64,000 nucleotides of DNA from Lingula anatina (taxonomy: Eukaryota > Animalia > Brachiopoda), in NCBI GenBank assembly GCA_051362555.1, contig CM120649.1, positions 8,370,001 through 8,434,000 of the forward strand. Reading direction: 5' to 3'. Shown piece by piece: positions 3,797 to 49,057 of this stretch (its first letter is position 1; every line of letters begins with the position of its first letter). The position numbers and the translations under genes are program-made. Under the pieces are notes generated by a model. That model was not told the origin of the DNA. It saw nothing but the letters and a program-made list of their open reading frames with translations, and searched no databases.

Positions 3797-6700
3797 ATGG
3801 AGCGCTGGAAAGGTCGAGTTGCCTTGGTAACAGGAGCATCTATGGGTATAGGAGCAGCCATTGCTGGAGATCTGGTGAAGAATGGTATGGTGGTGGTGGG
3901 ATGTGCCAGGCACGTAGAAGATATACAGGTGAATATTTCCTTAAGAAATAATAAAAAAAGTCGACTCATATTTAGCAGTAGAAACTTGAAAGAATACCGC
4001 GTAAATAAAAAAATAAAATTCAAGTAAGTAGTTACAAACTGATGTAAGTTACAAACTTTCGAGCCAGGTTTATTCCGCGTCTCAAAACTATCACATTAAT
4101 TCACCACTTGTTACGAAGAACCTACGGGAGGTGCCTTGGCAACAAGGACCTAGCTATCAAGGTGATATATCTTGTTAATCTCCCCCCACCCCCACCCCCC
4201 ACCCCCCCAAAAAAAGAAAAGAAAACCTGGTTGGATTGTAATCTGAAAGTAATTTTAGTGAGATTGGTTGCTTCATGCACTTTGAAAGAAATTCACTTGT
4301 TATGAGGGATATGTTAAACGACTCTGGTATCTAATATTTATGAAAAAGAACATGTATATCCAAGAGATAGAGCACCATACATGTATACTGTGATTTTAAG
4401 CTTGATTAAACGTTTTAAATCGCAGAAAACTGCAGAGGATCTGGCATCTGAGGCTGGACACTTGATACCTATGAAGTGCAATCTTGCAAAAATAGAAGAT
4501 ATTGAATCCATGTTCAGGGCAATTACTGAACAAGTGGGCGGGGTTGACGTCTGTATAAACAACGCTGCTGTTGCATCAGTAGAGTCAACGTTGATTTCCG
4601 GCCCTCCATCAGAGTTTAAAACAGTTTATGATGTAAGCATTGTACCATTGACATGATCTTTCTCAATAAAATGTTAAATCACCTTGAATTTATATTGACC
4701 AATATCAATTTGCAAAGCTACCAATGTACCCTGTTTATGTGCATCTAAGGGTGAATTCCCAGAGATTTAGATCGATCCAGAGATTTAGATTTAGATCGAC
4801 CTAACTCCTTGGGGGTTCACGCTAAATTGCAGTCAGCCGAGCGCTCACCATAGTTAATTACCCCCTTACAGCTTTTAGTAGGCGGGAGAGACGCTTAAGC
4901 CGGTTAAGCTGACGGTAATCTAGTGAGACTCCCCACAGGGATAGATCGATCTAAAATCTATGGGAATGGGGTCTAAAATCTCTTGCACCCTGAACACTGT
5001 CCCTACCAGTTTATCTCGTTGTATTAAATATGATGTGTTTTGTAGGTGAATTTACTGGCTGCCACCACGGTTGCACATCTCTCCATTAAGTCTATGAAGG
5101 AACGCAATGTGAATGACGGACATATTATTAACATTAGCAGGTAAATCCATCTCTCGTACTCCATCCCTCTCTCCTTCTGGGGATTGCTGTTGATTGTTTT
5201 CTTAAATTAATGTTCTTGTGTTGGACTGCATGTCTCTGATGGGCAGTTTGGCAGCAGTGATGGAGAAAGAGCATGACTCGTGCATAATAGGCGGAAATAG
5301 TTGTAAAATGATATTGTCAAATGAGTATAAAATCGCTTCATTAATTTTTTGCAAAGAGGGCAATGACAGGAAATATACTTTTTTATTCCATTTATCCTTA
5401 ATAAATGCTAAAACACGAGATCAAAAGATATGACAACTAAAAAACCACACAGAGAACATAGATCTCCGCCAAGGCAGCTCGAGTCTCATTATAATTAATT
5501 ATTAATAAATTGTGGTAGATCTAGGTGAGAGTACACCAATTGCACAACGACCTAATCCCAGCAAACACAATCAGTCAGATGGCAACTGGCCGCGCGTAGG
5601 AAAATATTCAGAACTGAGCGCGTGCGCTGAGATGACGTCGTGGTTGAATTTTTGTAAATTGCGTAACCATCGCGGGAATTCATGAATTGTGCTTAATTGC
5701 CCTCATACGTGCTTGTGAAGAATTACGACCTGATAGCAGAGTTCACTACGCGTCTCAACGTCTGCGATTTACCTATGAGTGAGCAGAAATGAATGAGCTA
5801 GAACTCGAGGAAATCGGCCAACGGGTAAATTTTTGGCCGTAGCAACACTGTAACAAATTGAGATATCTCCTTTATTAGAAATAACACGTCTTAGAAAAGT
5901 CCGTAAAATGTGTCTTTTTCAATAACCAAAATACGTGCCAAGTTTCATCAAAACTTATTCGTGGCAACTTTTTATGCGAGCTGTTGAAGTGCATTTTTGA
6001 CTCTATTCCGCTAGATGTCAGCCATATTCTGACGTCATATTCTCCAATACAGAAGCAAGTGAAGGTCTGGAGATTTCACTAAATTTCGAGAATCAATAAA
6101 CTTATAACTTATTTGCACAATAAAATGTCCCTTTGAGTAAAATAAATAATATGCTAGGCGTTTAAATCATTTTACCTTTCTAGATGTCTTATTTCGAAAG
6201 AAGATATTTTATCCTTATATCGCACCTGCACAAGTCAAGCCGGTTGCAAATCCTCCACGAAATTTGCTGTCATAAAGCTTATCTGCACAATCCTGAGTTA
6301 CGAGTAGACCGAACATAACATTTAAATTTTGTTTACCATTACGGACTGCGGCTCTGCTAATAAAGTTTGTTGTTTATTCATAGTAAATTTAAATAACCGA
6401 CGAATTTAAATAATGAGAACGGCTTCAATGTTTTTTCATGTGGTGTGGAGGAGTTTAATTAGTAGGAAGCAAGAACAAGAAAATGACTTTTAATGGGAAA
6501 GAAGCACTTAACTTGCCATAGAAATCCAAAATTTTCCAACTTAAGATATTAGTAGAGATTACACGTAGGTAAGAAACGTATCGAATTTAATAGATTTACG
6601 CTTATTTCTTTCAAGTTTAACATACTGCAGAGGAATATATAGGGTGTTAAGATTCCACTGAATCACTTTTAGACGCTGTCGGTAGAAATACTCTGTGAAA

Positions 6701-9700
6701 CAGGCGGAAAAAGAGACAGTCAATCAGTCGTCCGTAGTAGCATCAAATTAATTTTAAGTTGATTTTTTTTCATAAACAACAGGATCTGCGGCATCACTTG
6801 ACGTAAATAACACATTCCATTCAACATCTTAATTATTCATCTATCTAAAAAGAATCATTAAGCAGCCCCATGTTCGTGTAATCCATATATATACAGTAGG
6901 CCTATACCCTTATCATTTTATTTCTTTGAATTGCAGATAATCATAACCTAGTATGTCGGCCAAAAAAAAATCTGTTATATTTAATGATGACATCGATGAG
7001 ATTCTATTAAAGGAGGTAAATTATTACAACCCATTTAAAACCCCAGCTCGCTGGACAGAAGTAGCTGAATCTTTGACTGATCTGTTAGAGTTAACAAGCC
7101 CTTGCACTGCAAGAACTGTGAAAGAAAGAACTGTCAGGATTCTTGCTAAGTGGAAAAGTAGTGAACTTGCATCCCAAAAAGCGTGAGTAACTGAATATAT
7201 CAATCAAGGACTTTTTTAATTTGCAAATTCAACTGACATGTCTTACGCATCTTTACAGAAAATTTTATTTTTAGATTATTTTTTTTAATTTAAGATGGCA
7301 TAATTTTGCAAGTTTCATTCTGTGTTCCTCTTTTATTTTATGATATGAACACATTGTATCCTATGTTATGGGCAATAGGTTTTCTCTGTAGAAAAGAAAT
7401 TTGTAAGATGATTATGCATTGATCAATAAATAATTTTTGTGATATTATAGGAGTGGCATTCAACAAGATTACACAGAGTTACAGAAACTGATGATTGATG
7501 TGACTGAATTAGAGAAGGAGGCAGAAATAGAAATTGCTGAAAAAAGAAAGACAACGAATCCTAAAATGAAAGCAAAAACTGACACAGAAAAACTTAAAGA
7601 GGGAAAAGCAGTTCGAGATAAAGCACTGCTGTGCTTCTCTAAGAAAGGAAAATTGGATGGTAAGATACTACATTTTGATTAGGACATTGAAATGCCAAAA
7701 GGGTGTTAGAGTTGGGGGTTAAAGAGGATTTTCCTGCCAAAACTAATATTAGACAAATTTTTCCGGAGTAAAATGGCATTTTCCCCCAACTTGCCCACCT
7801 TATATTTTCCATTTCAGACACTCACCATACATCTGTAACAATTTTGGAAAAAAGGCGAACATCAAAACCCGCACTTAAGCGCAGCTTTGTCCCAATAGCT
7901 GACTACTTAGATTTGAATAGGGGACAGTGAATATAACTATGTCTTTTGGTATTGTTTAAGGTGATCTATTTGTCAATTTATGTTTTAAAAGTTTTAATTG
8001 ACCTCAGGTGAGTTCAACAAGTCTCGATTCATGCTTTTTCATTACAGTCAGAATCCTCTTTTGTGTCCCTTTAAGGTTGTTTAATTCAAATATTTCAGGT
8101 GTGAAAGATGAGATGAATGAAAGGCCAGAACAAGAAACCGAGAACCAGGATTCTGACAGTAAGTAGATATTATTTTGACTTGGTTACTAGTTATGAATGG
8201 GAGAGGTTTTTTCTTATAGGCCCCTAATCATTTTCTATAGAAAATATATATTTTTTATCTTAAAGAAGTCATTTTTCTATCATCACCACCTTTCTTGTTT
8301 GAATCTTACTTATATATCTTATTGCATGATGATTCCAGCTGGTGATGTGGAACCTCCAAAACCAAAGAAGATAAAGAAAAAGGCAAAAGAGGACCCCTTG
8401 CTTGGCATCTTGGCGAGAAAGCTGGAGCTTGATGAACTAAAAGAACAGCGTAAAATGCAAGAACTTGAAATCAGAAAGCAGGAGTCTGAAAATCAAAAGG
8501 CCCTTATTGGTGCACTGATTAATCAAAAGAGCAACATATAATATTTGGAGAACTCTACTACTGATCAGTAATTATCATGCCATTTGCTAATTAAAAGGAA
8601 GAGAGAATTTTGTTTATACAGTTTATTTTAATTTGAAAGTTTAAAGTTTTTTCACACAGTTTCATTTTATAATAAATTTTTCAATTTTGAATACTGTGTT
8701 TTCTTATTTATTATTCATAATCATAATATTGCAAATATTCCTCTAAACTTGGTGGATCAATATGAAAAAAATCAGTCGTTTCTGATCCATATAAACAGGT
8801 ATGGCAATTAACTAATAGAGCTGCAACCAGATACATCTTGCCAATAGGTTGAAGACAAAGTTTATGGTTTTTCTTATAGTCTAGGAAGGCAAAGTTTTCA
8901 ACAATTTTGCCGAATGTCCACTCTACAGATATTCTAACAGCTGACATGGAGGCATTGAACATCTGTTGATCAGGTGTTGGATTTCTGAATGGAACCTGTA
9001 TTTCTGGTCGTAAAGGATATGCTGGATCCCCATAGATGCAGCCTTGTTCTCCATTTATCTGAATTTCTGAGAGTTCCAGCATTATACCACTCATGCGGAG
9101 TAAGGCAGAATCATGCCTCGATCCTTCAACTGGACCAAACATATTTGCTATTAATCCATTTGGTGCAGTGATGCTCTGATATTTCAGGGCATGTGTCCGT
9201 TTGTGTCCATTATAGCACACTTGTTGCCCTTCCTGAGGCCTACACATAGGCCGCACAGTGCCGTCTATAAAGCCCCAGCAGTTAGCAAGTGCAGCCCCCT
9301 TAGCTTGGATAGCTGCAGCAAATAGTTCATATCCATCTGTCAGCCATTCTTGGTCACGCAGAGATTGTAGGATATGTCCATTGTTTTCATAGATAACATC
9401 AAGAGTTGTAGTGAATATTTGGGAAAGGGCACAAGATGGTCTGCCAAATACTTCTTCGAGGTCACACAGTCTATTTGGATATGCCAATCTACGTAACAAA
9501 ATGCACAATGCGTCTACTCCGGTTGATACAGTTCTATCTGAACAGATCAAAACGTCAGGGATGCCCAATGCATTTTGAAGTCTGCCAATGTCATCCTTTT
9601 GAAATCTTGTCATAGAACATATTTTTGCCGAGGTTTGGTCATCAAAAACAAACTTGCCATAGTCAGGATCATATGTGGAGTCTCTTCGTCGCTTGTAATT

Positions 9701-11788
9701 TGCGAAGACGAGCGTATTTTCTACGTCAAAGTCGAAAATTTGTGCACAAATCAACTTCCGCTTGGATGTCCAGGGCGCGGCCATTTTGGAACTAGCGGCT
9801 GCTGGCGGGAAAAAAAACGCATACGGAGTGAGACCTGCCAAAACCACTTCTAGCTATCTCGCGTACGTATAACGTATTACGTATTGATCTATACGTTACA
9901 CGTCATACGGAAGGCCTTGCCAAAACTCTCTATTATTCACAAACGCTTATATACATATATAGGCTATACGTACGTACTGTACATGTAGTATGGCAAATCA
10001 AATTTTTTAAGCGATTTATTCTAAAATCTTGGTTTTTCTATAACTCCCACACTCCCTTTTATTTTGCAATATTGGACTAAGCTACCCTGCTATTTGGAAT
10101 GTGGCATTTGAATCTTTGATACTTTTTGGATACTTTTTTTTTTTTTTTTACAAATATGCGCGTTGTTTTATAAATAGGTCAACATATAATCTTCTGCATA
10201 AATGATATCAGAATACATAAATAAAATCAGGCCATTTTCTTATGATCATTTTTTTATATAAACGATAAAATACCATAAAAAACACTAAATAATGATAGAA
10301 AATTCAGTTATCGGCGGGATTATCTAACCTTGACCGTTCAATAGGAACTCCCACAATGCTTTAGTAGTTCAAGGTCATCGTAAAACTTTCCAGGAACGCA
10401 TGCACGAAAGGTACAGTGGCAGAAATATTACTTGATCGTTTTTCTTTGAAATGATATATGTGTTGATATTCTTAATAAAGATGTAACCTGCAAATAAATG
10501 TCCTTTTTGCGACGGTCTGAGACCGCCATTTTTTCGTCATCATTTGAGCTGGATCTTGATTTTTTCTTCTGGTGACAAAACAAGAAATAACACGTTCTTG
10601 AAACTTTGAAATTTTAAACATTAGGTGGTGTTTTAACTTATATCTAAAAATTAGATAAATTCAGGGCCGGCAACTTTTTTCTCGCAACATAGTCCCACCC
10701 CCTACGATACTCATTTTGAGAACGATTTTATTTTCAAAATTCAAAATCGTGAACATATTTCATTTAAATTTTTGCATATTTCAGTAATCCTTTTAAATCG
10801 AGGGTAAGAGCATGGACTTTTCTTATTATCGTTACAAAATTACAACTCAAAACGACCTGGTTTGTTTTTAAACTGGTTTTATTTGCAAGGTACAGTTTTT
10901 CACGTCAGCCATCGCATTTGTCCAGAAACGGCGCTACTTCGTGACGCGGACTCACTGAAAAGTTTCAAATAACCGCCATGACGTTACGTTTTTCACCCGG
11001 TTGCCATCTGACTGAATACATTATTATAACGTCACCATAACGTTTAGATCTACATAAACAAAGAACGTTATGGTAACCTTATAAAAAGTTCTGTATTTAC
11101 TGGGATAACACCGTTCGTGATTTGGGGCCAAGGTCATTGGTATTCCGTAGGAGTTAACTAACAAAATAACTATTGGTACCAGTGTAACGTGAGAGAGAGT
11201 CCCCAATGACAGAGAGTCATAGATCAAAACCTAACATGATATTGGCGACTTCCTGTATCCATGCAAAACGTTTATACATTTGATTCAGGTAGGATAATCA
11301 AAGGGACATCGCCCTCATAAGAAGGCTGCGGTTTCTTTTAATGAAATTATTCGAATAATGCAATCTGCAAAATATGTTTCTTTTTCTTTTGCAGCTCAAT
11401 GGGCCATACTGTACTGGAATATGGCAACTTGCACACTTATTCCGCAACCAAGCACGCACTGAACGCCATCACAGAGGGTCTGCGTCACGAGCTGAGAAAC
11501 GAGAACTCCACGATTAGAACAACGGTTCGTAGTCTTTTCAACCTAGTGTCAAGTGGGAACATTCTTAATTATATTTCAATGTGTTTATTATGTAATATGT
11601 ACTATGTAGATTCCGGTAAATTGTTAAACAGGTCTCTGGTCTCATTTAAAGCGTCTGTGGGCGTCTACGCCAAGGAGATGTTGCGCTGTTGGTCTAAGAG
11701 CTTTTCACGTGCCGGTGTCCCATATATGTGAATATTTTTTATTCATATCACTTGTAGACCAAAAGAGAACTCGTGCCCCCCCCCCCCC

Positions 11789-11862
<74 letters not shown>

Positions 11863-12631
11863 GTGATTTCATTGAACAGGTCATATGCCCGAGTTTGGTG
11901 CAGACTGGTTCCACACAAGATTTCCTCCTGGAGGAGGCATTGCAAGTTCCGGAAAAGGCAGGTTTTGTTTTATTGATTACTACCTGCTACCCGCACATCT
12001 ACTTCAGAAATGTTTTCTCCGCTATACGTCTGTGATTTGTCAATTTAAAAGTGACTTTATGTTTTAAAAATCCCTTATGCCACTTGAACGGTTCAGGGCT
12101 GGGTCCTGCATGCAGATACGTGGACAATTGCAATATGGATAACTTTAAGATAGAAAACTTTCTATTATTATAACGCCAAGAAGGCAAGAAACGAGAGAGA
12201 ATGAAAACAAGAACGTTACTCGTTGCATACAGGTAGGAATCTGTCCAGGAAAAGTGGAGAGGAGGGGGTGAACTGGTTGCTTACATACGCGCGCGGTAAA
12301 AGCAATTCATTTCTTCGATGTTAATTAATTTTTTGATAAAATTTTAAATTGTATATACATGTTATTTCTTTACTTTGCCATAGGCCCTGCAGCCTTTGGA
12401 CGTTTCCGCGGCGGTGATGTATGCGCTCTCTGCCCCGCCTTGTGTTAACGTAAGTGGACCACTTTTTTAGCAAAGAGAAAAGTGAATGAACACTGAGCAA
12501 AACTGGTCAATGTACATTTATAAATTAGTAAGTCATATTTCTCGTGTTATTACCAACACCGTTATTGATAGTGCATAATTACACTGTATAAGGTTGCAAA
12601 TGAAATTTCGATCATATCCCGGAATTTCTGA
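3797..12631 (+). CDS. DHRS11: Short-chain dehydrogenase/reductase, DHRS11-like
   Basis: Exons 3797-3928 ([19 protein letters not shown]), 4426-4632 ([11 protein letters not shown]), 5046-5140 (DGHIINIS), 11395-11524 (YSATK catalytic YxxxK), 11880-11957 (ICPSLVQT; GC donor), 12384-12449 ([22 protein letters not shown]), tentative last exon 12593-12631 ([12 protein letters not shown]). Phases consistent; symbol is by family resemblance and the last exon is uncertain. Confidence 0.88.
4749..4973. mobile_element. PIF/Harbinger-type MITE (copy 1)
   Basis: taa|gggtgaattcccagagatttagatcgatc...gatcgatctaaaatctatgggaatggggtc|taa; imperfect TIRs, 3-bp TAA TSD; homologous to 39998-40212. Confidence 0.65.
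6953..8541 (+). CDS. Transposon accessory protein, Myb/SANT-like N-terminus + acidic/coiled-coil C-terminus
   Basis: Exons 6953-7182, 7451-7659, 8099-8158, 8339-8541, all GT-AG and phase-compatible. [13 protein letters not shown]...WTEVAESL...TARTVKER...[15 protein letters not shown] resembles Harbinger ORF2 proteins. Confidence 0.75.
8711..9784 (-). CDS. DDE transposase (DDE_Tnp_4/HARBI1-like), intact, ~357 aa
   Basis: Uninterrupted ORF from [10 protein letters not shown]; motifs [54 protein letters not shown]. Confidence 0.93.
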   Translation of the reverse strand: MAAPWTSKRKLICAQIFDFDVENTLVFANYKRRRDSTYDPDYGKFVFDDQTSAKICSMTRFQKDDIGRLQNALGIPDVLICSDRTVSTGVDALCILLRRLAYPNRLCDLEEVFGRPSCALSQIFTTTLDVIYENNGHILQSLRDQEWLTDGYELFAAAIQAKGAALANCWGFIDGTVRPMCRPQEGQQVCYNGHKRTHALKYQSITAPNGLIANMFGPVEGSRHDSALLRMSGIMLELSEIQINGEQGCIYGDPAYPLRPEIQVPFRNPTPDQQMFNASMSAVRISVEWTFGKIVENFAFLDYKKNHKLCLQPIGKMYLVAALLVNCHTCLYGSETTDFFHIDPPSLEEYLQYYDYE

Positions 12632-13417
12632 CTATAAGAATTTCGGGACATACATGTACATGTATGTCAGGGACGTCTTTGCATTTTAGGTCCGTCATAT
12701 TTGTATTGCTGCGGTTCTGGATGGCTACTTTTGAAGTGGATTCGGCTCAGTACTCCACATCTGTAAATCAGGATAACTAAAACAGCACATTTAATACATA
12801 AACGGCCATGTGTAATAACCAGTAGGGAAATTAATAAAATAACAAAAATAGCGGCAGTATGAATTCTACTAAGATGTACCGTGCACATGATAAATGCGAA
12901 GCTGTGACATTGCTCCTCGAACTGTGTACTGTATATGCCTCTAAGGAATTTTTTTTTTTACAAATCTATAATTGATAATCAAAAAGCAGGGTAGATGCGG
13001 AACTTTTAATGAATTAATTTATGCTTAAAGGGGGGAAAATTATTTAAACTCATGTTAGCATTTGTCTCAAAACTCCAGGCTGATTCCCAATACGAAATGG
13101 TGATCTGGCCCTGTACTGCATTATGAATAATGGGAGGAAATATGCTGATAAAAATTATTGTGTAGGTTTATTCCAATGTATATTGAACACATATAATAAT
13201 AATACCCAGATACAAACTATTTTACACCAAAATATACTTGGTTTAATTTGTTCGCAATTGCTGTTGATACAGATTCAATCCTCGAAATGAAAGACAATTC
13301 AGTTACTGTGAATAAAGCAGATAGTGCATTCGTTTCACATAAAATACAATACCAGAACGCAATGTTTGGTTATGTTAATACAGATAAAATGCAATCACCA
13401 AAATTTAGAAACAACTT

Positions 13418-16400
13418 TTAATTTACTAATAATTTTGAATATGACGTAATTGCTGTATAAAGAGTCGATCTATATATGTTGATGGTTTTATCCACGCAAC
13501 ACTTCAGAAACGGGGTCTTGCAAGGTTCGCACATGGGGAGAGACAGTTCCTTGCAGGTTCCGCTTCCGGCCTTGGTTTTCAGCCCCTTAAGACAACACAT
13601 CCGAATGTAATCCTTCAGTGCATCTGGGTCAATGTCCGGGTTTGGAGGCAGTGTAATCTCTGATAAGAAAGAAACACAAATATGCACAAGTTCATGTAAT
13701 TTATGTTTATTATATTGAGGGCCTGTTCAGGACCAGTTGATCCACGGACTAACTAGTCGGCGGATCAATTTGGCGTGACCAACTTGAAAGCAAGCCAGTA
13801 TTTAATTGCCCTGCCCCTGCAGACATGTTTGATCCGTGGACTAGTTAGTCCGCAGCCCAACTGGTCCTGAACATGACCTTTAGACGACCATTCATATACT
13901 GCAAATACGTCATTCTCTTACTATTTTAAACGCATAGCTTGCGTTATTACTAATTGCACTTTTAATATTCGTATAAATACAAAAAGAAAAAAAATTGAGA
14001 AAATATTCATGTGACCCATTAATATGATAACTTACTTTCGCAGCCAATATCTTCCCCCGTCCATGTTCCATTTTCACAAACTTTGTGTGTGGAGCCGTTG
14101 GTGTGTTGATAGCCTTAAGAAAAAGGAACGCTGTATAAATACCCGGAAAAAAGACTTCCACTTTCTAGTTCCACTTTTCAAGACACTATTCGGAGAGCTT
14201 TACAGGATGACAGACTAGTAAATTTAATGGCAAACTTACTACATACTCAATGTATTTGATTTTGTGCTTTCTAAAAAAAGTTTTTTAAGTACCTTTCAGA
14301 CAAATGTAGTGGACTTTTCCTCCATGTTCGTATAACTTCTCTGGGGCTGATACGTAGGCGTATGCGACCTTGGGAGGCTGTGAACAGCTCACTGGTATAT
14401 TATATTATATTATATTATATTACATTATATTATATGCTTGCTAAATATGACATACTACAGACAGGTAAAATAAACAGAATGGATAATGACATAGAGTAAA
14501 AATCAGCTCCTAAAATTGAGACGCCGTTAACGTTAACTAATGGCAGCGCAACCCCCCCCCCCCAGCCCCTAAAGCAATATTACCACCTTGGATGGTAAAA
14601 ATAAGTAGACATAATTTTCATAACGATTGAATTTATCTCTTACATTCCTTTTCAGAACCGTGACACATGACCGTGGTCCAGTCCGTTGGACAACCATCAG
14701 GTTATATAACTTTTTATAATGCATATACTGTATATTCAATATCAGTACGGTCAAAACGTTGCTAATCACTCACCCCAATGTTTATATAAATAAGTATACC
14801 GGTCAGTAGCCAGGAGGATTCGAGGGATTAGAAAGAACCGCACTTCTGCCGAGAGATTGTCCACACTGGACGAAATTTGATCAAGATGCAAGAAGGTTTC
14901 AAAGAAAAGGTCCACTTTTTCTTTTAGAACCCACCCACCCCCCTTTGAAATCGCTGGCGGCTTCGGGCCTGATCGATAAATAACACCATAGTCCCTTACT
15001 TGGCTGAACATCTTCTTGAGGCAGGTCCTGGTCAGGACAGCAGTTCAGGAAGGCAGTCTTGCACGGTTCGCACATCGACTTGGCCAAGGTGGCGCATGAC
15101 TCATTTCCGGTTCGAGCCCTCAATCCTTTTTGGCAGCATTGGCGCTTGTAGTCGAACAAAGCCCCAGGGTACAAATTGGATGTTGGTGGTGCAATTTCTA
15201 TAGTCAAAGTCACAAAAAATTCACCAATGTCAATCCATATTTTGGTATGCTCATTTAAATATTCTATTAAATATTGTATATATATATATTTTAAAATACT
15301 CTACAAGTTCAAGTAAATACACATACTAAGCGATAAAACTTTTTTCTACATACAACAGGTGAAGCTAGCACTTGTAAAAAATATACACCATAACTGTTAC
15401 TGTTTTAAGTATAATGTCAAACAATCCTATTCTGTACGTCTTTTAATAGATAAACCAGTTGAACCCATTTACTGCACAAATTTATGGTGATGAAAATAAT
15501 AAAATAAAATAAAAAAATAAAAGAATAAGATATAGTTACCGCAAAGGGGGTTGTGAATATAAACATTACAACCCCTGACATTGTGTGATGATTTTTAAGT
15601 AAATCATTTATTTTCTACTTACGTTCACATATAATGTTATGCCCAACCCATAATCCCGTCAGGCACAATTTATATGAAGATCCGCCAACATGCTGATATC
15701 CTAGAGGAAACGAAGAGAATCGACATTTTGCCTTTCATCATTAGATACAAGGGATTAATTTTTTTAATAAAAACAATATGTAAATATTAAAATACCATTC
15801 TAGGTATAATACCCCGGTAAATTAAAGGTTAGCAAATACACTGAACGACTTTTCCCACAGTAATTTTTAAATTTAAAGAGTATTTTGATAAGATTCTCTT
15901 AGAAATTGCTGACAACGAAGCAGGAGACCGCTGTTGGTGCTGAACAGAGATCTCAATTGCCATGCCGTATAATGCCGTATAACATATAATGTCACTAAAC
16001 CTGCCCTATACATTGTAAACAATCGGTTCACAGTATACTAGATTAAGTCCCCATAGTGCATAAACCTGCATTCTCAAAAAAAAATTGACACACATCATTT
16101 CCTGCCTTTTTATTACATGAGCCTACCTTTTTCACAAGTATAGCGGATTCTCTCGCCTTTCCTGTAATTCTTTGCTAATGCTATTCGATATGCAAACGCG
16201 ACCTGGGGTGGTTCGCCACAATACTCTGCAATGAGATAAGTAGACAAATAATTAATGATAGCATTTAGGAATTTAGAACCATGTGTTTCAAAACAAAGTT
16301 ATATTTTTTCTCACGTATAAACACGTTCTATTTAACGTAACAGTTAACTTAAGATAAGGACGTGACGTGTTATCAACCAACCCTTCACACAGAAGATAAC

Positions 16401-16654
16401 TCCGACAAGTATATATTAATCCGACAAGAACTAAAGGTGGTAAAATAAAAGTATTACAGTGGATGAGTACACAGACCACAAATCAGTGTTTGGAAAGGGC
16501 AAATGAGAGGAGACTATCGACAACTTTATCAAAACCACATATACGAATGAAGTAAATAATTCATGCCAGTAACTCACCACCTTTGTATTATAAGCATAAA
16601 TGTTTCCTTTACTTGCGAAAACATTTTGGCAAGTATATCAATCTGTTTGCAGTC

Positions 16655-16747
<93 letters not shown>

Positions 16748-18501
16748 ATGTGTGTGTCACGATATAGGACGCAATTTTTGCTTGTTTTTTGCTTGCTTGT
16801 TTTTTGGACAACTAAAAGACCTAGAATGTGCCCTGTTGATTTTCATAAATGGCTGCCTGTTTTGAATAAAAAAAATAATAACATGCCCAAGACTATTGAC
16901 AGATTTTTTTAATTTGTATTTTTAATTTTGGGTGTAATCTCATTAAATCGTGTGAACTGATAGTAAGTCCAAATTACACTTGTGTTGATAAACTAGTGAT
17001 GCTCTTGCTGCTCAAACAGTGGATGACCTGCAACTGTAGTAAACAAATAGTGCATAAGATGAAATTGACTAAGAACCATCATGTCACTTGACTTTCATTT
17101 AATGACTGGCAGACAATAGTGGCCGACCTTAAATGGGTCAATGCAAACCGTCTTTTAAATAGCTGCACGGCGTTTTCAGTTGTATGCCAGTTCAGCTGTC
17201 ACTATAACATTAGGGTAAAAATTTGGAACAGGAATAAAAAGAGGCAATATAGTTGTGCCGGTATATAGCAAGTTCTTGATCTATTGAGCACTTTTATTTC
17301 AGCATTGCTTCAAACAACTCTTGGTGTATTTTAAATTTATGTGCACTGAAATTATTAGTAGGTGGCCTCTTATATGGACGCCAAAACGTATAACTACGTA
17401 AATGGGTGGGTAATTGCTTGAATACAAAGTCAAGATAACTCGTTCATAGTTACATTTTGAATGACAAATTGTTGATTAATTCAGCTCCAAAGGCGTAAAT
17501 ACCAGTGACGCAGTGAGGTAGATTAATAAACATGAGACGAGCAATAAATCATTATCAAAAATAAGTGCATTAGGGGTGCATTTCTAAAATAATACTCCTT
17601 GTGCGGTATGAACTTGATTCACCCAACTTATACAGTCTCCTCTCAAACAGTCGAATATATGTACGTTAAAATTTTTAATTTAAAATGTGAAAAATATGTA
17701 AAAGTTTGCGGTTCACCGATAAAAAAGTTTGAACCTCATTGGTGGGATAGCTTCAGCTGAAAAAAATTACGTAAGAAGCCCGGATGTTTTTTTTTTTTTA
17801 TGCAGCTTTATCATTTTAAATATTGTGCATTAATTAATTCGTGGTATCAAAAACGCCTCATGTTAGTAAAACAAAATCGCCATTTATGTTTTTTTTATAT
17901 ATAATTACAGTCTTCTATTAAAGAAGGTTAAACATCTTAAGAATATTTATTCAGAATGGTGGAAAATATCCTTGGTTCACTTTGATCGTGATGTTCTATC
18001 ACATATGTTAATAAACTTTATTTAGAAAAGTTGATTGCTATGTTTTTTTTTTCTCTCTACAAAATACAACAAATATACATAAAGACTTTGGCTTTGTAAT
18101 TGTTACACACAAACACACACACTCAACAGCCAAATCGAGCGTCCCTTAGGAATCAACCATTTCAGTAGATTCACAGAGAGTCGAATACAAACAAAACCTA
18201 TAGTTTTAATGAACATTTTAATAGCAATACATTTGGACAGACTAAAAAATATAATACAAGTTAATTTAATTTCCATTGGGAAAATGAATTAACTAGGGAT
18301 TAAGAATATAAAAAAACTTAATGAAGTAAGTAAACAAATAAATACTGATGTTAGGTTAATAAGTAACAATCAAAAGTGAATGTAATAAACAGAATTACGC
18401 CTTATTAAATACGTACTATTCTCTCCTTCCTCCGTAGCTGCAGTCTGCCAAAATGTTACAACAAACAGAACAGCGGCGACGCTGAGGTGGACAGCACCCA
18501 T
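13418..18501 (-). CDS. Secreted protein: signal peptide + two tandem [Sushi/CCP domain + anaphylatoxin-like domain] modules, 292 aa
   Basis: Exons 18501-18417 (MGAVHLSVAAVLFVVTFWQTAATEEGEN), 16225-16127 (YCGEPPQVAFAY...YTCEK), 15700-15623 (GYQHVGGSSYKLCLTGLWVGHNIICE), 15197-15000 (CCQKGLRARTGNESCATLAKSMCEPCKTAFLNCC), 14391-14293 (SCSQPPKVAYAY...YICLK), 14113-14036 (GYQHTNGSTHKVCENGTWTGEDIGCE), 13659-13418 (CCLKGLKTKAGSGTCKELSLPMCEPCKTPFLKCC...*). All GT-AG, all phase 1, 879 nt with no internal stop. Confidence 0.88.
13719..13878. mobile_element. Palindromic MITE (Harbinger-like) in last intron of the CCP-anaphylatoxin gene
   Basis: gggcctgttcaggaccagttg...ggactaactagtc versus ggactagttagtcc...caactggtcctgaacatgacc: long imperfect TIRs. 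Confidence 0.6.
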
Positions 18502-21062
18502 GTTTCTTCTATGGCGACTTTCAAATGATTAAGTTTCAACATAATTAGGTATAAATTTTATGGGTGGAAAAAATAAGGTGGGATGGGCCACCTTTATTGA
18601 ACAAATGGGTAAAATTATGAGCTCAGTTTATGATGTCTTTATGACAATGTTCCATACTTTCAGCAATATTTTAGTGCTAGTGAACGTCTACTTTACCTGA
18701 GTGCAGTCTGTTAATTCTGAGTTCCGGGGTCAAAGACAACCGCCTTCTTTTCACAGGTAATTTGCCACCGTAATAAATGCACATCGTGACGGCATTCCTT
18801 AACCAGGCTAACAACAAAACCGCATCAAGCACAAATCTGTATTAAAAGTGTTATTCAAACTGTCGCCATATATCTCTACGTTATTCTAAAGAATGCCGTT
18901 TACGTGGTACACGTACATGTTTCACGTTAGGGCGATTGATGCTATGGTGATCGTCCTTTCCTTATGAGAAGAATAAACAACTCTAAAAATTAGTAGCTAA
19001 AAGATAATTACACGTTGAAGTAAACCATGTTTCCGTGATAAACGCACTTCACAAGAGAAAGTACTTCATTACAACGAAAATTACGTGCAAATATTTTATG
19101 ATGCTAGAAAAGTTAAAAGTATATTTCCACGGGCTGTCATAAAAGTAAGTTTGAACGCGTCATTCGTGTCTGTAATTACAGCAAAGACCTGCTTAGTGTT
19201 AAATATTGGCTTTTTGGCTCTGCTTAGACGGCTAATCTAAAAGATGTCCAATCCGGAATTTTCACGCCAAATATAATTTTTCCTTAATAAAGCTATTTCC
19301 CCTACCCACGGACAATCGCTCGAACGGTCTCTTGCACTTGAATTCGATGTTTTATATTATTAAGTCCTAATTAAACCCATAAAATAAAGTTGAACCCCTA
19401 AATTAGCTTTTCTTAACACTGTGTGAAGACAATCAAAATTTGCTCTATGGACACAGTTACAAGACCAAAAAAGATCTGAATCTTTTTATGTTGTTATACT
19501 TACCAGAGACGGAAGGTTTCGGGAGTTTTGAACTTGAGTCAATTTGTTGAGCGGCCTCGTTTCTAGAAGGTGAAAAGTGACTAACCTGATGAGGAGGAGA
19601 GACGATGTTTCCCTGGGACGATAGACAGACCTGGTGAGGGGGAGGGACACTGTTTCTCTGGGACCATCAACAAAAAACTCTTGCTAAACTGAACCTGAAT
19701 AAGGATACGTACATGCAGCTATATTAAGACATGAGAAAAAATTCTTATTCCGATAAAATGGTCCATATTTAGCAGAAAAGCTTACGGACAGTTAGACAGT
19801 TACAATAAATATATATATATGCACGTCCTCGATACTGGGTAACAACAGTGGGTTATCATCTTAGAAAATGTGTCAAAATATTCCTAAGTGTTGGATTACA
19901 GTGGGGTGCTTACATGTGAAAGGGGATGGATTGGTGTGCATTTTAGCTATGAATTGCTTGAATTGACATAGAGTTGAATAAATGAATTTATGAAAGATCA
20001 AATAAAACACTACTTGTACTTGTATGCTTTTAATATTTATTAGGTTCCAAACAGCCATTGCTATATGTACATATTATAAACACAACTGAACTTTTTTATA
20101 GTTGGTCCTGATATTTCTATTTGCTTTGTTCATGAATAAATGCAAGATTATGCCTGTGGTTCTATACAACCCGAAAAACGCGTCGTTTGTGAATGTATAT
20201 ATTCAGCAGACTGTTGTCATATGTTCACCAGTATTAAGTTCTTGCGTCTCAGATGTAACAAAATGCATTAGATTGTGCCTGGAGAAATACTCAATAAAGA
20301 TTACTTTTTTATCAACTTGTTTATATTTTTAAATAAAATGTATGCAGTCGATCAAATCCTATTTATAATATACTGTATCGATCCACTGTATCGTTTGCCC
20401 AGCCAAAAATAGGAAATAAACTAAATACCTAACTACCCCAATTGTTCACATGCGACATGGTCGGGGGGGGGGGGGGGGGTGGAGGAGTCGAGATGTTTGG
20501 TTAAACAGCTGTTATGGCTGTTAGGGCGTCCCACTCTGATCAAATGTTGACGTACATATACGTGCTTAACAAAATTCCCACACAATAAACTGTAAGCCTA
20601 TATTCCCATAAAAATGAATGCATTAAACTCCAACTACATGTTTATAACGTACGTCATTTGTGATCCACTATCAGTGTGTCAGCGTTTTATAATTACCTTT
20701 TCTTTATATATATCAAAGTTTTGTCTTTGTCAGTATTTTGCTGTTAAGCGGCGTAATGAATGTCCTTTACTGTTGTTTCTATTCAAATTACTAATATATT
20801 TACACAGGGCGGTAGGGAGAAGTATTGATAGGGGGGAGATGTGGAGGGGAGGGCCGCCTTTTTGGCCTAGGAAAAAGTCCTCTCTGAACCCAAAGTTAAC
20901 AAAGGTTTTATATATTCCAAATCCTCAGGTTGAGTCAACCAGGTAGATATCTGCTCTCTTCTTCCTTAGCTCAACCAAAGGGGGGCGAAAGGGAGTTTAC
21001 TTACTTATTATTATATTTTTGGCGGGGGGGGGGGGGGGAAGAGCCCTCTTTGAAGCTGCTGA

Positions 21063-22536
21063 TTATACGTTAATATTCTGCGGTAAGATGCCTACATAAT
21101 TTGCATACTGATTCTCTTGGGTCCTTGGTACTTCATAGATATTATCTGCTGTCAATGTTAGGTAGTCACCTGTAATTAAGTCATAGTCCGAGCTGGTTGA
21201 TAGACGAAGTTGTCCTTTAGGTGATTTAGGAGGGGTAGGTGCCGGAACGTCGGAAAACGCTGGGTTAGAGTGAGAAACATGTAAGCTTTGTGGGTTAGAT
21301 GGCGGTGTTCTGAAATAAGATTCATAAATGTATGCCACATTTGTCTCATCTCCAAGACAAAAAGGATAATAAGAAATGATTCACAAGAAAAAATCTATGA
21401 TTGGAAATGTACAGTAATGCACTAGACTAAATAAAAGATACAGTGTATTAAAAAAAAAAGCAAACTAAACTAATAAAATACATAGTTAACAAGAAAGATA
21501 ACGAACTGAACCAAGAAAATGCATAGTAAAAAAAAGATAGATGAACAGATATAGGAACATATGAATGCAAAATTTACATATACACAAAACTTGAATTGAG
21601 AGAGAGAGAGAGAGAGATAGGGGAGAGAGGGATATTTTACCTTCGTCTTCTCAAAAATACTAGTATAATGATCACCACCAATATGAGAGTGACCAGCGGT
21701 GAGGCCACTGCGACACCAATTACCAGCGGGATGCTTGTCGAGTCCTGGTCTTTCATTATTGGAATCGCAAAAAAATTACAAATAATGTTTGAAAAGTTTT
21801 TTAGGGATTTGATGAAGATTAAAGTGGTGATATCACAATTCCAATGTCTTAATTTTTTACATTTGGTCGATGCACTGGATAACGGGAGGCAATTTAAAAT
21901 GTACAACCCTCTTAGCAAAATATGAAACTTTTTGAAAACTTGCTGCAAAGTTGAAAAAAGGAATTCTACCTGGCATATGAGGTATTGTTTTCAATTCGAA
22001 GTTATATGAAGAATTCTTGCAAACTTGCCTCAAACTTTAGATGCTTTTGCAAATAAGTAGCAAGTTTGCAGCAATTTTTTTTTCTTGCAACAACCTGCAA
22101 AAGGTTTAGTTTGTAGCAAATTGGCAGCAAATTTGCTGGAAATGTGCTGTAAACTTATTTTATTTTGCTAAGGGAGCTAGTTCCTCTCTTTCAAACTGCA
22201 TGAGTGGTCTCTGTTTCAAAGTCACCTTTAAAAGATAAAACAAACTCCTTTCATAATTTTACTATTCAAAATGATTATCAGCTATCAACTTTTCTATTTT
22301 AGAATTATTCTTGACATTTGGAAGTCATACCTCCTTCTTTTCCAGTGGGAGTTACGGTCGTGCTGGTAGAAGCTGGCGTGACCATGGGAGGCAAAGCGGA
22401 CACTGTCGTTGCTAGGGAAGTTGTTGAAGTTTTATTCAAAGTTGAAACTTGAGTGCTGGATGTTGATGTTCCGGTGGTGGTAGTAGGCGTGGTAGGCGTA
22501 GTAGAAGCCGTTGTAGGCGTCGTTGTTGTGGTTGGC

Positions 22537-22573
<37 letters not shown>

Positions 22574-25435
22574 TAGTAGTGGGGTTTGTTGTTACAACGG
22601 TAGTTGTAGATGTGGTAGAAGATGTAGTCAAAATGCAACCGGACACTTCATCTGGGCATGCGCACGTTCTGCCGTTGGGTTTTGGCAGACACAGGTATGG
22701 ACAACCCCCATTGTTTACACTGCAAGCGTTCGATCCTACAATGCAAAGTTGCCAAAGCATGTGGGACGTTAATAAAGCAGGGGCGGATTTAGGCCGTCTT
22801 TTGGGTCTTCAGGAAGACGGTCAGATTTTCAAGTTTAAACTGACGGGTATCTATATGTTTCTGTCAGAAGACGGTCCAAAAATGGAGGATGGATAAACAA
22901 ATATAGTATGGAAGACTGTCAGAAAATATCTCTGGATCCGCCCCTGTAAAGGGTACCGGAGGAGATCAGCATTGGTCAGAATTGTGCCGGAAGTGACGTG
23001 TAGTGGTGTAAGACGTAGAACTGAGCGGTCATTTTTAGCTGGAGGTGAATGGGAATGAAGACGTGGGCCTGGAGAAAAAAGCAGTTATTCTAACAACACG
23101 ATAAGATAACATAACTTGACGTCACACTTCCGGCACAATTCTGACCAATGCTGATCTCCTCCGGTACCCTTTATTGCAATAAGACGATTACTCTATAGTG
23201 CGTGCAGTCGTTTAAGATATGCCATTTGATTTATAATATGTGACTGTATACAACAACTTGAAATAATGTGTAATAATACATGGATATACCTGTAGGCGCT
23301 TGCTGTATTACATGTATCTTTTGATACATGTGAACCATCTTTGTAACAAGCGCCACAAGACTACTGGGTCGATTTCTGACTTGAGTCCATAAGGTCCCGT
23401 CGGAAATACGCTTAGAAATGAGAATGCTATTCCATTTTTGCGAGTGTAAAATATTGGGAGTGTTATAAATCCCAAGTATCTCGAAGTATTTACTTTTGGG
23501 TCCGCTAACTTCATATACCTTGCCAATATGCCATGGTTTGAACATTTGAACATTTGGACTAGAACTTTTTTTACTGTCAAGGTAGTGAGTTGCCAGCCAA
23601 TAGGAGCAGTCAAATCGACATCTACTTACTTGTGACCTTGGCCGTTAATATCATGTTTTGATAAAAAGGTTATAAATTAATAAACATTGAAGGCCGCTAA
23701 CCACACTAAATCTGCCGAATTTTCATGAGCCGTCAGTAAAAAGTAAAACTCTTTGTTATCTTGCGCAACAATTTATATCGTCCGAGCTAATAGTAAGGCC
23801 TTTGGTGGTAGTAATAAAGCTAACTTTGACTTTTACAAAGGTCGACATCTCAGGAGTGTGTAGGGAGACATTTGTGTGCAGTAACGGAATGGGTGCTGTT
23901 TGGGACAGAGAAGCCAATGACATCCAGTCACTTGTCGGAGTCTTGGACAGGGATTGCATGTACGACCAGTTGGATGTACATGTACCTGCAATCTAATATG
24001 CGTTTATAAACAAGCGTCGGCTTGACATGGCCGGGCATGGCTTGAACAGGCGGCTATGAAAAACCCCAAAGGCCACATGAATTCGGGTGTGGGTTTCTAC
24101 AGTACTAAGTAGTAAGTGGGAAGCCACCTCCAGACCCCTTTAATTGATCCTTCATCCAAGATTTGGGGCCTCAAAAGTACTTCTATTTGTGCTTACTGAT
24201 GCCGCGTTAACCCTGTACTGTAATTCTGATATGGGTATGCTAGTAAATGCATTTTCTTTCAGAAACAGATATGAAGGATGTTGCATACCAGTCCTAAGCA
24301 GCTGTCTGTGTGATTGTTACAGTATAGTATATTGAAGTATGATAAAAGAAAATGTATTCCCCTTTCCCAACACTTGATAGTGTAGTACACCTTTGCTGCA
24401 CCTTAAAATGTGTATCTTTATTTAAGTATATGCATGAAGAACTACTAGAAGAAAAAAATGGGATTTGTTTTGCGAATGAGAAATTGTCTGATGTCATATA
24501 AATCCACCTAAATTTCTAGTTTCATTTACACTATAGCTGTATTTATAAATATATTGACATTCTCATAGTATTCCATTTCCCCTTTAAACAGAAGAATAGT
24601 GACATTCATAATTTGATAAAATGATTATATTCAACCCCAATGCAACATTAACAAATTCTTTCATTATGATGTACATAGACTACTACACCTCCCATTGTTT
24701 GTAATTAGTGTGTTAAGTGAGATTCAGAATTTACTGGTGCATAGCACATTATGAACTAGAAAAGCTCTCCGAGAGCGCAGACCTCCGCCAAGGCAGCAAT
24801 TTTCGATTATTTTTGATTGATTATTGATCCGAATCACCAACAAAAACTAATCATCTGTTCCTTGGCCCATTTCTGACAGTTCCAAAAAATTTCATCAAAA
24901 TCGGTCCATAACTTTTTGAGTTATGTTGATGACAGACAGACAGAAAGACAGACAGAAAAACAAACAAACAGGGGTGAAAACATAACCTCCTTGGCGGAGG
25001 TAATAAACGGTTTTTTCTGTATTATCACACCCAGTAGTACTACTGGTAGTATAAGAAGACATGTATTTTTGTACTTATTTCAAATACCGAACCATAATTA
25101 TGGTTTTATTCTTTCATACATGCACAATGCCTCTTGGTTGGTTTTGATAAATATGATTAAGAGACTATGCGCTTTCACAGCAAAAAAAAACATGCTCCTA
25201 GCTAGTACATGTAGTAACACTTAAGATTTGAGTGCATAACCTGCACAAGAAGTTGCTATTGTTTTTAATCGATAGCAAACGTACATTGAAGAGAAACAAG
25301 TATATTTATTTGTAGGCCTACATGTTCTAGTGTCAATGAAAATGTCTTACTGGGCAAACTTTGCTGTTTTGTGACTTGTTAGAATATATCGTTTTCTACC
25401 GAACACCTTTTTAGACCGGAACCATCTTGAGGACA

Positions 25436-25478
<43 letters not shown>

Positions 25479-25482
25479 GTCT

Positions 25483-25532
<50 letters not shown>

Positions 25533-28500: not shown

Positions 28501-29306
28501 AACAAAGTATGGAAGAGACGTTTACAAACGTCTTACGTCACGTAACACCATGACGCGAAACATTGTGCTGAACAAGGTTTTACAATATATAGTCACATGA
28601 TCTCCTCCATAAAACTACATGCGTATGGAATATTATAATTATGAGTGTTTTGGCCCTAGTAATTAAGGATGGCAGCCTCTCATGTTACGTCACTAAACGC
28701 CATGTAATATATGTAACATCGCACCAGCTGCTGTAATATTTATTGTAACTTTGACTGGCTTATAAATACTGTCTAGATGCTATTGTTCAATTATTTGAGG
28801 ACAAAAAGAAATTACTGATCGCGTCTAACTATTATGTGTCGCCAGGAAAAATATTTATTTTGTGACTTTTGTGCATCTCATTAAACAATCACAAAAATTT
28901 CGACCCGCCTTTTTACCTTTGATTGTAAAGAGCTAAAGCAGAGCAGTGTATGTTTAGCATAATGTTAGTGCATATTTTAAAAACAATAAGTTTAAGACAC
29001 AAAAAACATCAATTCCAAATTTTGATAATGTCAACCCTAAAAAGAGGGAAAAAACTCGTAAATACCCGTTTAGTGGATCCAACGCCAAAGCTCTCGGCCT
29101 ATCCAATCCAGTTCTTAACAAAATCTTGTGCTGGGAGCCGTCCAATCTCATCGCACCCACGGTGTCATACCTGCGCTCGGTGTAGTACAATAGGCGGGAA
29201 ATATGGTCAACTGTAACGGCGTCTTGTACGCTCCCTGAGAAGAGAAGTTTGGCCTTTAAAACGACCCTTCTCTCACCTTTCACCTCTGTGTGTGTGTGTG
29301 TGTCTG

Positions 29307-29339
<33 letters not shown>

Positions 29340-29340
29340 T

Positions 29341-29392
<52 letters not shown>

Positions 29393-39805: not shown

Positions 39806-39885
<80 letters not shown>

Positions 39886-40913: not shown

Positions 40914-40964
<51 letters not shown>

Positions 40965-48982: not shown

Positions 48983-49057
<75 letters not shown>

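What the first reader, a model, noticed from the sequence alone, without database searches (positions are those of the whole stretch)
13418..18501. Secreted protein built only of tandem Sushi/CCP + anaphylatoxin-like modules (candidate novel complement-related factor)
Seen: seven clean phase-1 exons give signal peptide-CCP-ANA-CCP-ANA (292 aa). The CCPs have the C..C..GY..C..W..C pattern. The ANA units read CC-x2-G-x9-C-x10-C-x3-F-x2-CC; human C3a has CC-x12-C-x12-C-x6-CC with the same G and F. Known: anaphylatoxin domains occur in C3/C4/C5 and fibulin-1/2, and CCPs typify complement regulators and proteases. Here there is no thioester/macroglobulin, EGF or protease domain, and I do not recall a characterised protein with this pairing. 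Inference: a stand-alone invertebrate immune mediator, such as a convertase-independent C3a-like ligand or a decoy/regulator. The ORF track shows only the two ANA exons, so automatic annotation could miss it.
Basis: partly seen in the sequence, partly recalled or inferred. Interest (0 to 1): 0.88.

Follow-up and report, generated by a model that had tools for sequence, protein, structure and literature searches.

The report
Brachiopod sushi-anaphylatoxin mosaic secreted protein
This intact lamp-shell (Lingula) gene encodes a small, predicted secreted protein that pairs two sushi modules with two C3a-related modules, a combination we found in no other animal; it likely works as a disulfide-linked extracellular connector rather than as an inflammation signal.

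Summary
The gene is real as described: seven minus-strand exons, six phase-1 GT-AG introns, 292 aa, signal-CCP-ANA-CCP-ANA. It differs at 5 and 4 residues from two Lingula anatina RefSeq models named 'ZP3 receptor', so annotation did not miss it but mislabelled it. A 69% identical paralogue is named 'complement factor H'.

The ANA units are true anaphylatoxin-domain homologues (profile vs C3a E 7e-7) but fall below Pfam's cut-off. Two points are new. All four ANA units of the family carry a seventh cysteine. Their nearest kin among 1.84 billion representatives is not C3a but five tandem six-cysteine units in a Lingula chitin-binding/EGF mosaic protein, so the module is mobile in Lingula.

The immune reading is weakened: no conserved C-terminal arginine, and never more than one CCP in a row. 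Most likely the protein is a secreted adaptor that the spare cysteines cross-link, as in fibulin-2 (inferred, untested). Splicing was not shown: no junction reads in 8 shallowly sampled RNA runs. The architecture was not found in 10 literature searches, but the Lingula immune survey (Gerdol 2018) could not be read. The scan had no earlier look-alike.

The parts
18417..18501 (-). Exon 1 coding part: start codon, hydrophobic signal-peptide-like N-terminus (about residues 1-22, cleavage site inferred) and short acidic spacer
   Evidence: hydropathy peak 1.68 at residue 1, none above 0.96 after residue 30; no dedicated signal predictor was run
16127..16225 (-). Exon 2: first half of CCP1 (Cys31, Cys59)
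   Evidence: Pfam Sushi positions 1-30, E 0.0046
15623..15700 (-). Exon 3: second half of CCP1 (GY, Cys74, Trp, Cys86)
   Evidence: no Pfam hit alone; part of the two Sushi stretches of the whole RefSeq protein; 54% identical to exon 6
15000..15197 (-). Exon 4: Pro-rich lead-in, anaphylatoxin-like unit 1 (core 15138-15037, 7 Cys; extra Cys130 codon at 15072-15070) and acidic linker; symmetric phase 1-1 exon
   Evidence: (ANATO E 0.0013, 20.1 bits)
14293..14391 (-). Exon 5: first half of CCP2 (Cys156, Cys184)
   Evidence: Pfam Sushi 1-30, E 0.0043
14036..14113 (-). Exon 6: second half of CCP2 (Cys199, Trp, Cys211); two N-glycosylation sequons
   Evidence: Pfam Sushi 33-56, E 0.072
13418..13659 (-). 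Exon 7 coding part: anaphylatoxin-like unit 2 (core 13597-13496, 7 Cys; extra Cys256 codon at 13531-13529), 25-residue tail, stop TAA 13420-13418
   Evidence: (ANATO E 0.027); same C-terminus in both RefSeq models

Best explanation
The gene encodes a predicted secreted 30-kDa protein of two CCP-plus-anaphylatoxin units, each unit with one cysteine more than the anaphylatoxin fold needs, and it likely acts as an extracellular adaptor that these spare cysteines join to itself or to matrix proteins. Shown: gene structure, domain identity, internal duplication, seventh cysteine in 4 of 4 family units, a paralogue, and kinship of the units with a Lingula chitin-binding mosaic protein. Inferred origin: an anaphylatoxin module of the C3/fibulin superfamily became a mobile phase 1-1 exon in the Lingula lineage, joined a two-exon CCP, gained a cysteine three residues before the fourth canonical one, and the three-exon unit then duplicated. 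Inferred mechanism: six cysteines staple each small helical unit as in C3a; the seventh stays exposed at the start of the last helix and forms inter-chain disulfides, giving dimers or short chains in which the better-conserved CCP modules are shown in several copies to a partner protein in coelomic fluid or matrix. The partner is not identified.
For: The extra Cys is in both halves and both paralogues (4 of 4 units) but in 0 of 5 units of the chitin-binding protein, which have Ser, Thr or Ile there. It therefore most simply predates the internal duplication, when the one-unit ancestor had an odd cysteine count and no partner in its own chain (inference). Precedent: the fibulin-2 anaphylatoxin region forms a homodimer with an inter-chain disulfide through its unpaired Cys500 (PMC11220139, parts 1-3 of 5 read). 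The only non-family hit of an ANA-only profile among 1.84 billion representatives is XP_013379695.1, with 5 chitin-binding domains, EGFs, TIL and five tandem ANA-like units, E 9e-20, a matrix-type context with no C3 parts. Between paralogues the CCPs are 84% and 75% identical, the ANA cores 62% and 65%, and the stretch between the CC pair and the third Cys 33% and 42%, as expected if the CCPs hold the conserved binding face. No membrane anchor. Lingula is reported to build lineage-specific matrix proteins by domain shuffling (PMC4595640, passages).
Against: No experiment shows a dimer or a partner. After the duplication the two spare cysteines could pair inside one chain. In fibulin-2 the odd cysteine arises by loss of a partner cysteine, and the modules fuse into one domain, unlike the separated units here. 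By sequence the units resemble C3a far more than fibulin-2 (32.6 vs 15.1 bits; only one fibulin sequence is in that library). None of the four Lingula accessions is in the supplement of a 2026 shell proteome (0 hits each, positive control 14 hits), so shell matrix is not supported. Fast divergence of the ANA surface and opposite net charge of the paralogues (pI 8.4 vs 5.6) also fit an immune role. Splicing and tissue are not shown. The full-length structure model is unusable (pLDDT 41).
Confidence: 0.45

Rival explanations
1. It is a soluble complement-interacting factor (decoy, inhibitor or bridging opsonin): the CCPs bind Lingula C3b or factor B, and the C3a-like units mimic the part of native C3 that the convertase meets.
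For: Both module types are typical of complement; the CCPs match factor H and CR1 best among solved structures; the ANA profile is closest to C3a; C3 and factor B are reported in Brachiopoda (PMC11312191, passages); paralogues diverge fastest in the ANA surface.
Against: Known regulators need 3-4 successive CCPs joined by 3-8 residue linkers (PMC6683126, passages); here each CCP stands alone, 69 residues from the next. Matches to factor H and CR1 are per-domain weak (best single-domain E about 0.002) and add up over many repeats. The sister ANA units lie in a chitin-binding protein with no complement part.
Confidence: 0.2
2. It is a ready-made, convertase-independent C3a-like ligand for a coelomocyte G-protein-coupled receptor, bivalent and held in place by its CCPs or spare cysteines.
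For: Significant homology to C3a (E 6.6e-7; 29 of 31 hits are C3/C4/C5-family chains). The single-sequence model has three helices placed like C3a helices 2-4 (pLDDT 72). Unit 2 has a free tail of 25 residues (19 in the paralogue), similar in length to the 20 residues after the last cysteine of the 77-residue C3a chain. Bivalve C3-like a-fragments are chemotactic for haemocytes (PMC8960428, passages).
Against: No terminal Arg: the chains end in Asn, and the one Arg in the tail (276) is absent from the paralogue; the tail is only 47% identical between paralogues. Unit 1 is internal, with no Arg in its linker in either paralogue. No helix matching C3a helix 1 is predicted.
Confidence: 0.15
3. 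The spare cysteines act inside the monomer: either Cys130-Cys256 clasps the two units into a closed, protease-resistant shape, or each C-E-P-C at a helix start is a redox-sensitive thiol switch.
For: Two spare cysteines give an even total of 22; the Pro-rich linkers could let the units meet; the C-x-x-C lies at the start of the last predicted helix, the placement of thioredoxin-type active sites (recalled, not from a call).
Against: The E-P-C-K part is inherited from six-cysteine units, so the likeness to thioredoxin may be chance; there is no thioredoxin fold; a one-unit ancestor could not have formed the clasp.
Confidence: 0.13
4. The model is not a functioning stand-alone gene: it is silent, or the front of a longer transcript.
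For: No junction reads and no coverage of exons 2, 3, 5 and 6 in 8 RNA runs sampled at 6-30%; the RefSeq entries are predictions whose evidence was not visible.
Against: Open frame over seven exons with six canonical introns; three near-identical intact versions and an intact 69% paralogue that keep all 22 cysteines and end within 25 residues of the last one; the neighbouring dehydrogenase gene was also barely covered; a convergent gene starts about 700 bases downstream.
Confidence: 0.07

Closest known systems
Complement anaphylatoxins C3a/C4a/C5a (Pfam ANATO PF01821 within C3/C4/C5)
   Same: Six canonical cysteines in the order CC-C-C-CC with the conserved Gly and Phe; profile match E 6.6e-7; predicted helices like helices 2-4.
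   Different: Not cut from a thioester protein; two copies, each behind a CCP; third-to-fourth Cys spacing 10 instead of 12; a seventh Cys; no conserved C-terminal Arg; no first helix predicted.
Fibulin-1/2 anaphylatoxin-like region (mouse fibulin-2, PDB 8R5W; PMC11220139)
   Same: Anaphylatoxin modules used in a secreted mosaic protein, without helix 1; an unpaired cysteine just before the last helix of a module, which in fibulin-2 links a homodimer.
   Different: No EGF array or fibulin C-terminal domain; units separated by a CCP instead of three fused modules; weak sequence match (E 0.2); the odd Cys is a gain here, a lost partner there.
Lingula XP_013379695.1 (automatic name 'fibrillin-1', 1122 aa; P0004)
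   Same: Five tandem ANA-like units, 31-46% identical to the four family units, sharing E-P-C-K-x-x-F-L-x-C-C; same species; also below the Pfam cut-off (19.5 bits).
   Different: Six cysteines per unit, first loop two residues shorter, no CCP; flanked by chitin-binding, EGF and TIL domains. Itself uncharacterised.
Regulators of complement activation (factor H, CR1, C4BP-alpha/ZP3R, CD46, CD55)
   Same: Canonical four-cysteine CCP modules; source of the RefSeq names.
   Different: Only two CCPs, not adjacent; no run of 3-4; no membrane anchor; the RefSeq names reflect generic CCP similarity.

Membership tests
Sushi/CCP module (PF00084) | About 56-60 residues, four cysteines, GY and Trp; score above the Pfam cut-off | tested here: met
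   Two stretches, 57 bits vs cut-off 20.7 on the RefSeq twin; 56.3 bits in the paralogue
Anaphylatoxin-like domain (PF01821) | Six cysteines CC-C-C-CC with conserved Gly and Phe | tested here: met
   All four family units; full-length match to profile positions 1-36
Anaphylatoxin-like domain (PF01821) | Score at or above the Pfam gathering cut-off (21.4 bits) | tested here: not met
   20.1 and 15.8 bits for the two exons; 16.5-18.5 for whole proteins
Anaphylatoxin-like domain (PF01821) | Significant homology to solved members by profile search | tested here: met
   Three-sequence Lingula profile vs C3a E 6.6e-7; 30 of 31 hits carry the domain. The two-sequence profile gave only E 0.0011
Anaphylatoxin-like domain (PF01821) | Disulfide-stapled helical bundle | tested here: inconclusive
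   Model pLDDT 72 with three helices; Foldseek: 18 shown of 24 rows all C3/C4/C5 but best E 0.7; VIA top C5a-A8, Z 4.6, rmsd 6.4, 62 aligned, tied with unrelated rows; Atlas rows TM 0.54-0.59, under its bar. Disulfides could not be read from the model
Functional anaphylatoxin (C3a/C5a type) | Released from a thioester/macroglobulin protein by a convertase | tested here: not met
   292-aa protein with no macroglobulin domain
Functional anaphylatoxin (C3a/C5a type) | Conserved C-terminal arginine | tested here: not met
   Chains end in Asn; Arg276 not kept in the paralogue; no Arg after unit 1; feature taken from PMC8960428
Functional anaphylatoxin (C3a/C5a type) | Activates a C3aR/C5aR-type receptor, chemotaxis | not testable with these tools
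   Needs cell assays
Regulators of complement activation | 3-4 successive CCPs with 3-8 residue linkers | tested here: not met
   Two CCPs, Cys86 to Cys156 separated by 69 residues holding an ANA unit; criterion from PMC6683126
Regulators of complement activation | Decay-accelerating or cofactor activity | not testable with these tools
   Needs biochemistry
Fibulin-1/2 | Calcium-binding EGF array and fibulin C-terminal domain after the ANA region | tested here: not met
   None in the protein; stop 25 residues after unit 2 in window and RefSeq
Fibulin-1/2 | ANA region forms a homodimer, linked by an unpaired cysteine (fibulin-2) | not testable with these tools
   An odd cysteine per unit is present; the oligomer state needs an experiment
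Lingula shell matrix proteins | Listed in the shell proteome | tested here: not met
   0 hits for four accessions in the one supplement file held for PMC13425148, control 14 hits; its three Sushi proteins are other accessions. The 2015 list uses other gene ids and was not matched

The most novel reading that the evidence does not exclude
The C3a module escaped from complement C3 in brachiopods as a mobile exon and now serves in a ready-made, two-headed anaphylatoxin-like ligand that needs no convertase and is fixed in tissue by a spare cysteine instead of a thioester: the first stand-alone C3a-type signal, with a sister set of the same modules built into a chitin-binding matrix protein that could flag damage to chitinous surfaces.
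Probability: 0.13. Interest if true: 0.82.

Novelty: new variant of a known kind. Interest (0 to 1): 0.52.

Why it matters
The anaphylatoxin domain is usually described from two settings only, C3/C4/C5 and fibulin-1/2. Lingula adds two more, both hidden just under the Pfam cut-off and under wrong names ('ZP3 receptor', 'complement factor H', 'fibrillin-1'). This shows the domain can move by exon shuffling, offers small soluble proteins for testing what it does outside C3 (signal or structural clasp), and warns that counts of 'factor H' in lophotrochozoan genomes can include such proteins. If it proved to be a convertase-free ligand it would change the view of how complement signals arose. As a matrix adaptor of one lineage it is a modest but clean case of domain shuffling.

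Tried and rejected
RNA: no indexed RNA holder was listed. Too thin to count either way.

Complex prediction of unit 1 with unit 2: no answer, score 0.02; not evidence for or against. Full-length structure from three sequences: pLDDT 41, not used. Atlas feature search: generic Sushi clusters for the whole protein, no usable hit for the ANA part.

Homologue searches: exon 4 against longer proteins, 1 of 19 candidates; whole protein, 2 of 436; ANA array of P0004, 1 of 1100; ANA profile against 1.84 billion representatives, 2 hits. All hits are Lingula. Limits: the word-based search missed the paralogue, and the profile did not retrieve C3 or fibulins at E 0.001, so distant CCP-ANA proteins in other phyla are not excluded. 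No whole genome was held, so the family size is a lower bound.

My CCP and EGF regular expressions found nothing even where such domains exist, so they are not used as evidence. Rejected: ZP3R or factor H orthology (names from CCP similarity); front end of a fibulin or C3; shell matrix protein; nesting inside the dehydrogenase gene (a plausible last exon lies at 12691; inferred, not shown). APC11 and PSCyt3 hits are cysteine-pattern noise. Earlier scan notes: 0 by sequence, 0 in this genome; by words, 'anaphylatoxin' and 'anato' were met in no finding.
Full report
Observation. The region holds a seven-exon gene on the minus strand (18501-18417, 16225-16127, 15700-15623, 15197-15000, 14391-14293, 14113-14036, 13659-13418). 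All six introns are GT-AG and phase 1, and the 879-nt frame gives 292 aa with 22 cysteines. The N-terminus is hydrophobic and there is no later membrane-like stretch; secretion is inferred from that, as no signal predictor was available. Exons 2-4 and 5-7 are an internal duplicate: CCP exons of 99 and 78 nt twice, 55-56% identical in DNA. The anaphylatoxin-like (ANA) pattern occurs twice in the window and never in 60 shuffles; a profile of nine such units finds only these two exons among 1570 six-frame segments.

Identity. Exon 4 retrieved a 292-aa Lingula anatina RefSeq protein, XP_013400834.1, named 'zona pellucida sperm-binding protein 3 receptor'. It and XP_013407710.1 differ from my model at 5 and 4 residues without gaps, which fits alleles (inference). 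The window is therefore Lingula DNA and the splice model has an independent prediction behind it, though I could not see that prediction's evidence. A paralogue, XP_013400808.1 (286 aa, 69%, named 'complement factor H'), keeps the architecture and all cysteines; it is not in this window. The precomputed domain lists show only Sushi, so the ANA units go unnoticed.

Domains. Both CCPs pass Pfam (57 bits). The ANA units match the whole ANATO profile but stay under its cut-off (15.8-20.1 bits vs 21.4). Against solved structures, exon 4 alone gave C3a at E 0.0015, and a three-sequence Lingula profile gave C3a at E 6.6e-7, with 29 of 31 hits from C3/C4/C5, one fibulin-2 (E 0.2) and one unrelated. 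The single-sequence model of exon 4 has three helices (pLDDT 72). Fold searches point the same way but are weak: Foldseek best E 0.7 with all 18 shown rows C3/C4/C5; VIA best C5a-A8 at Z 4.6, rmsd 6.4, tied with unrelated proteins; Atlas ANATO and fibulin rows at TM 0.54-0.59, under its bar. Homology to the anaphylatoxin domain is thus well supported by sequence and only suggested by structure.

First, each unit has seven cysteines, spaced CC-x12-C-x7-C-x2-C-x6-CC, in 4 of 4 units of the two paralogues. The extra one lies three residues before the fourth canonical cysteine, where human C3a has glycine. Second, an ANA-only profile run against all 1.84 billion representatives returned two proteins: the paralogue and XP_013379695.1 (E 9e-20), a 1122-aa Lingula protein named 'fibrillin-1' with five chitin-binding domains, EGFs, a TIL domain and five tandem six-cysteine ANA-like units. 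Those units are 31-46% identical to ours and have Ser, Thr or Ile in place of the seventh cysteine. The module is therefore mobile in Lingula, and exon 4 is a symmetric phase 1-1 exon, the usual vehicle of such shuffling (established knowledge). Whether it came from C3 or from a fibulin is open; the sequence leans to C3, on a library with only one fibulin.

Is it stand-alone? The stop follows unit 2 by 25 residues in the window and both RefSeq twins, and by 19 in the paralogue. A short-chain dehydrogenase gene on the plus strand converges on it, with a plausible last exon at 12691 (inferred). Extension into a fibulin or C3 is unlikely. Splicing was not shown: 8 of 9 listed RNA runs, each read at 6-30%, gave no joints and no reads on exons 2, 3, 5 or 6, and the neighbour gene was barely covered too.

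How it likely works. Because the spare cysteine is in both halves, it most simply arose before the duplication, in a one-unit protein where it had no partner in its own chain. That points to inter-chain bonds. Fibulin-2 is the precedent: its anaphylatoxin region dimerises, and an unpaired cysteine links the dimer though it is not needed for it (PMC11220139, parts 1-3 of 5 read). Between paralogues the CCPs are better conserved (84%, 75%) than the ANA cores (62%, 65%) and their first loops (33%, 42%). I read this as a secreted adaptor whose ANA units staple chains together and whose CCPs bind a partner (confidence 0.45). All of this mechanism is inferred. Against it: no dimer is shown, the two cysteines could pair within one chain, the proteins are absent from a 2026 shell proteome supplement (section 8 and passages read), and fast surface change with a charge flip between paralogues (pI 8.4 vs 5.6) would also suit immunity.

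Rivals. A complement decoy or regulator (0.20): Brachiopoda have C3 and factor B (PMC11312191, passages), but regulators need 3-4 successive CCPs (PMC6683126, passages) and these stand alone. A convertase-free C3a-like ligand (0.15): bivalve C3-like a-fragments attract haemocytes, but the C-terminal arginine reported as conserved from cnidarians to vertebrates (PMC8960428, passages) is missing, and the tail is only 47% conserved. An intramolecular clasp or thiol switch (0.13). A silent or incomplete model (0.07).

Novelty. Ten full-text searches (listings and abstract starts) showed no description of a CCP-ANA protein or of ANA units in a chitin-binding protein. Passages of PMC9835746, PMC13365339, PMC4224354 and PMC4595640 and supplement searches of PMC13425148, PMC13121700 and PMC4595640 mention none. 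The library lacks most subscription papers; the Lingula immune survey (Gerdol 2018) was not held and it or its supplements may list these genes. All homologues found are from Lingula, but the profile was too weak to pull C3 or fibulins from the large library, so distant relatives are not excluded. No look-alike was noted earlier in this scan.

Verdict. A real, mislabelled gene with an apparently undescribed pairing of two known modules, and a sign that the anaphylatoxin domain has become mobile in a brachiopod. It is a new variant of a known kind (extracellular mosaic proteins), not a member of the anaphylatoxins, the complement regulators or the fibulins. Interest 0.52; about 0.8 if it proves to be a stand-alone C3a-type signal (probability 0.13).

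Noticed in passing
P0004 = XP_013379695.1, residues 604-818: Lingula protein named 'fibrillin-1' holds five tandem six-cysteine anaphylatoxin-like units (45-47 residue spacing) between chitin-binding domains and EGFs; ANATO score 19.5 bits, under the cut-off, so unannotated. No relative found for this array. It deserves its own study.
   Followed up: partly
P0003 = XP_013400808.1: Paralogue named 'complement factor H' in RefSeq although it has only two separated CCPs; acidic (pI 5.6) where this protein is basic (8.4).
   Followed up: partly
window 13718-13879: Inverted-repeat element in intron 6 (51-nt arms, 84% complementary, 60 nt apart); RNA reads with unrelated flanks pile on it, so it is likely a dispersed miniature transposon.
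   Followed up: partly
window about 3800-12735, + strand: Short-chain dehydrogenase gene (adh_short), convergent with the finding; its probable last exon at 12691 gives an unusual C-terminus.
   Followed up: partly
window 8711-9853, - strand: Open 380-aa DDE_Tnp_4 transposase-like frame (E 3.6e-24) inside an intron of the dehydrogenase gene.
   Followed up: no
window about 21000-29800, - strand: Exons of a membrane protein with LDL-receptor class B repeats, an EGF-like module, a Thr-rich stalk and a hydrophobic helix, upstream of the finding.
   Followed up: no
window about 39600-49400 and 50394-55541, - strand: Glycosyltransferase family 7 exons, and next to them a 1715-aa open frame that looks like a retrotransposon polyprotein (BEL/Pao-like by recall), with a repeated stretch at about 49600-49950 and 55600-55900.
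   Followed up: no
window 15072-15061 and 13531-13520, - strand: The seventh cysteine forms a C-E-P-C motif at the start of the last predicted helix, the placement of thioredoxin-type active sites (recalled); invariant in all four family units.
   Followed up: partly
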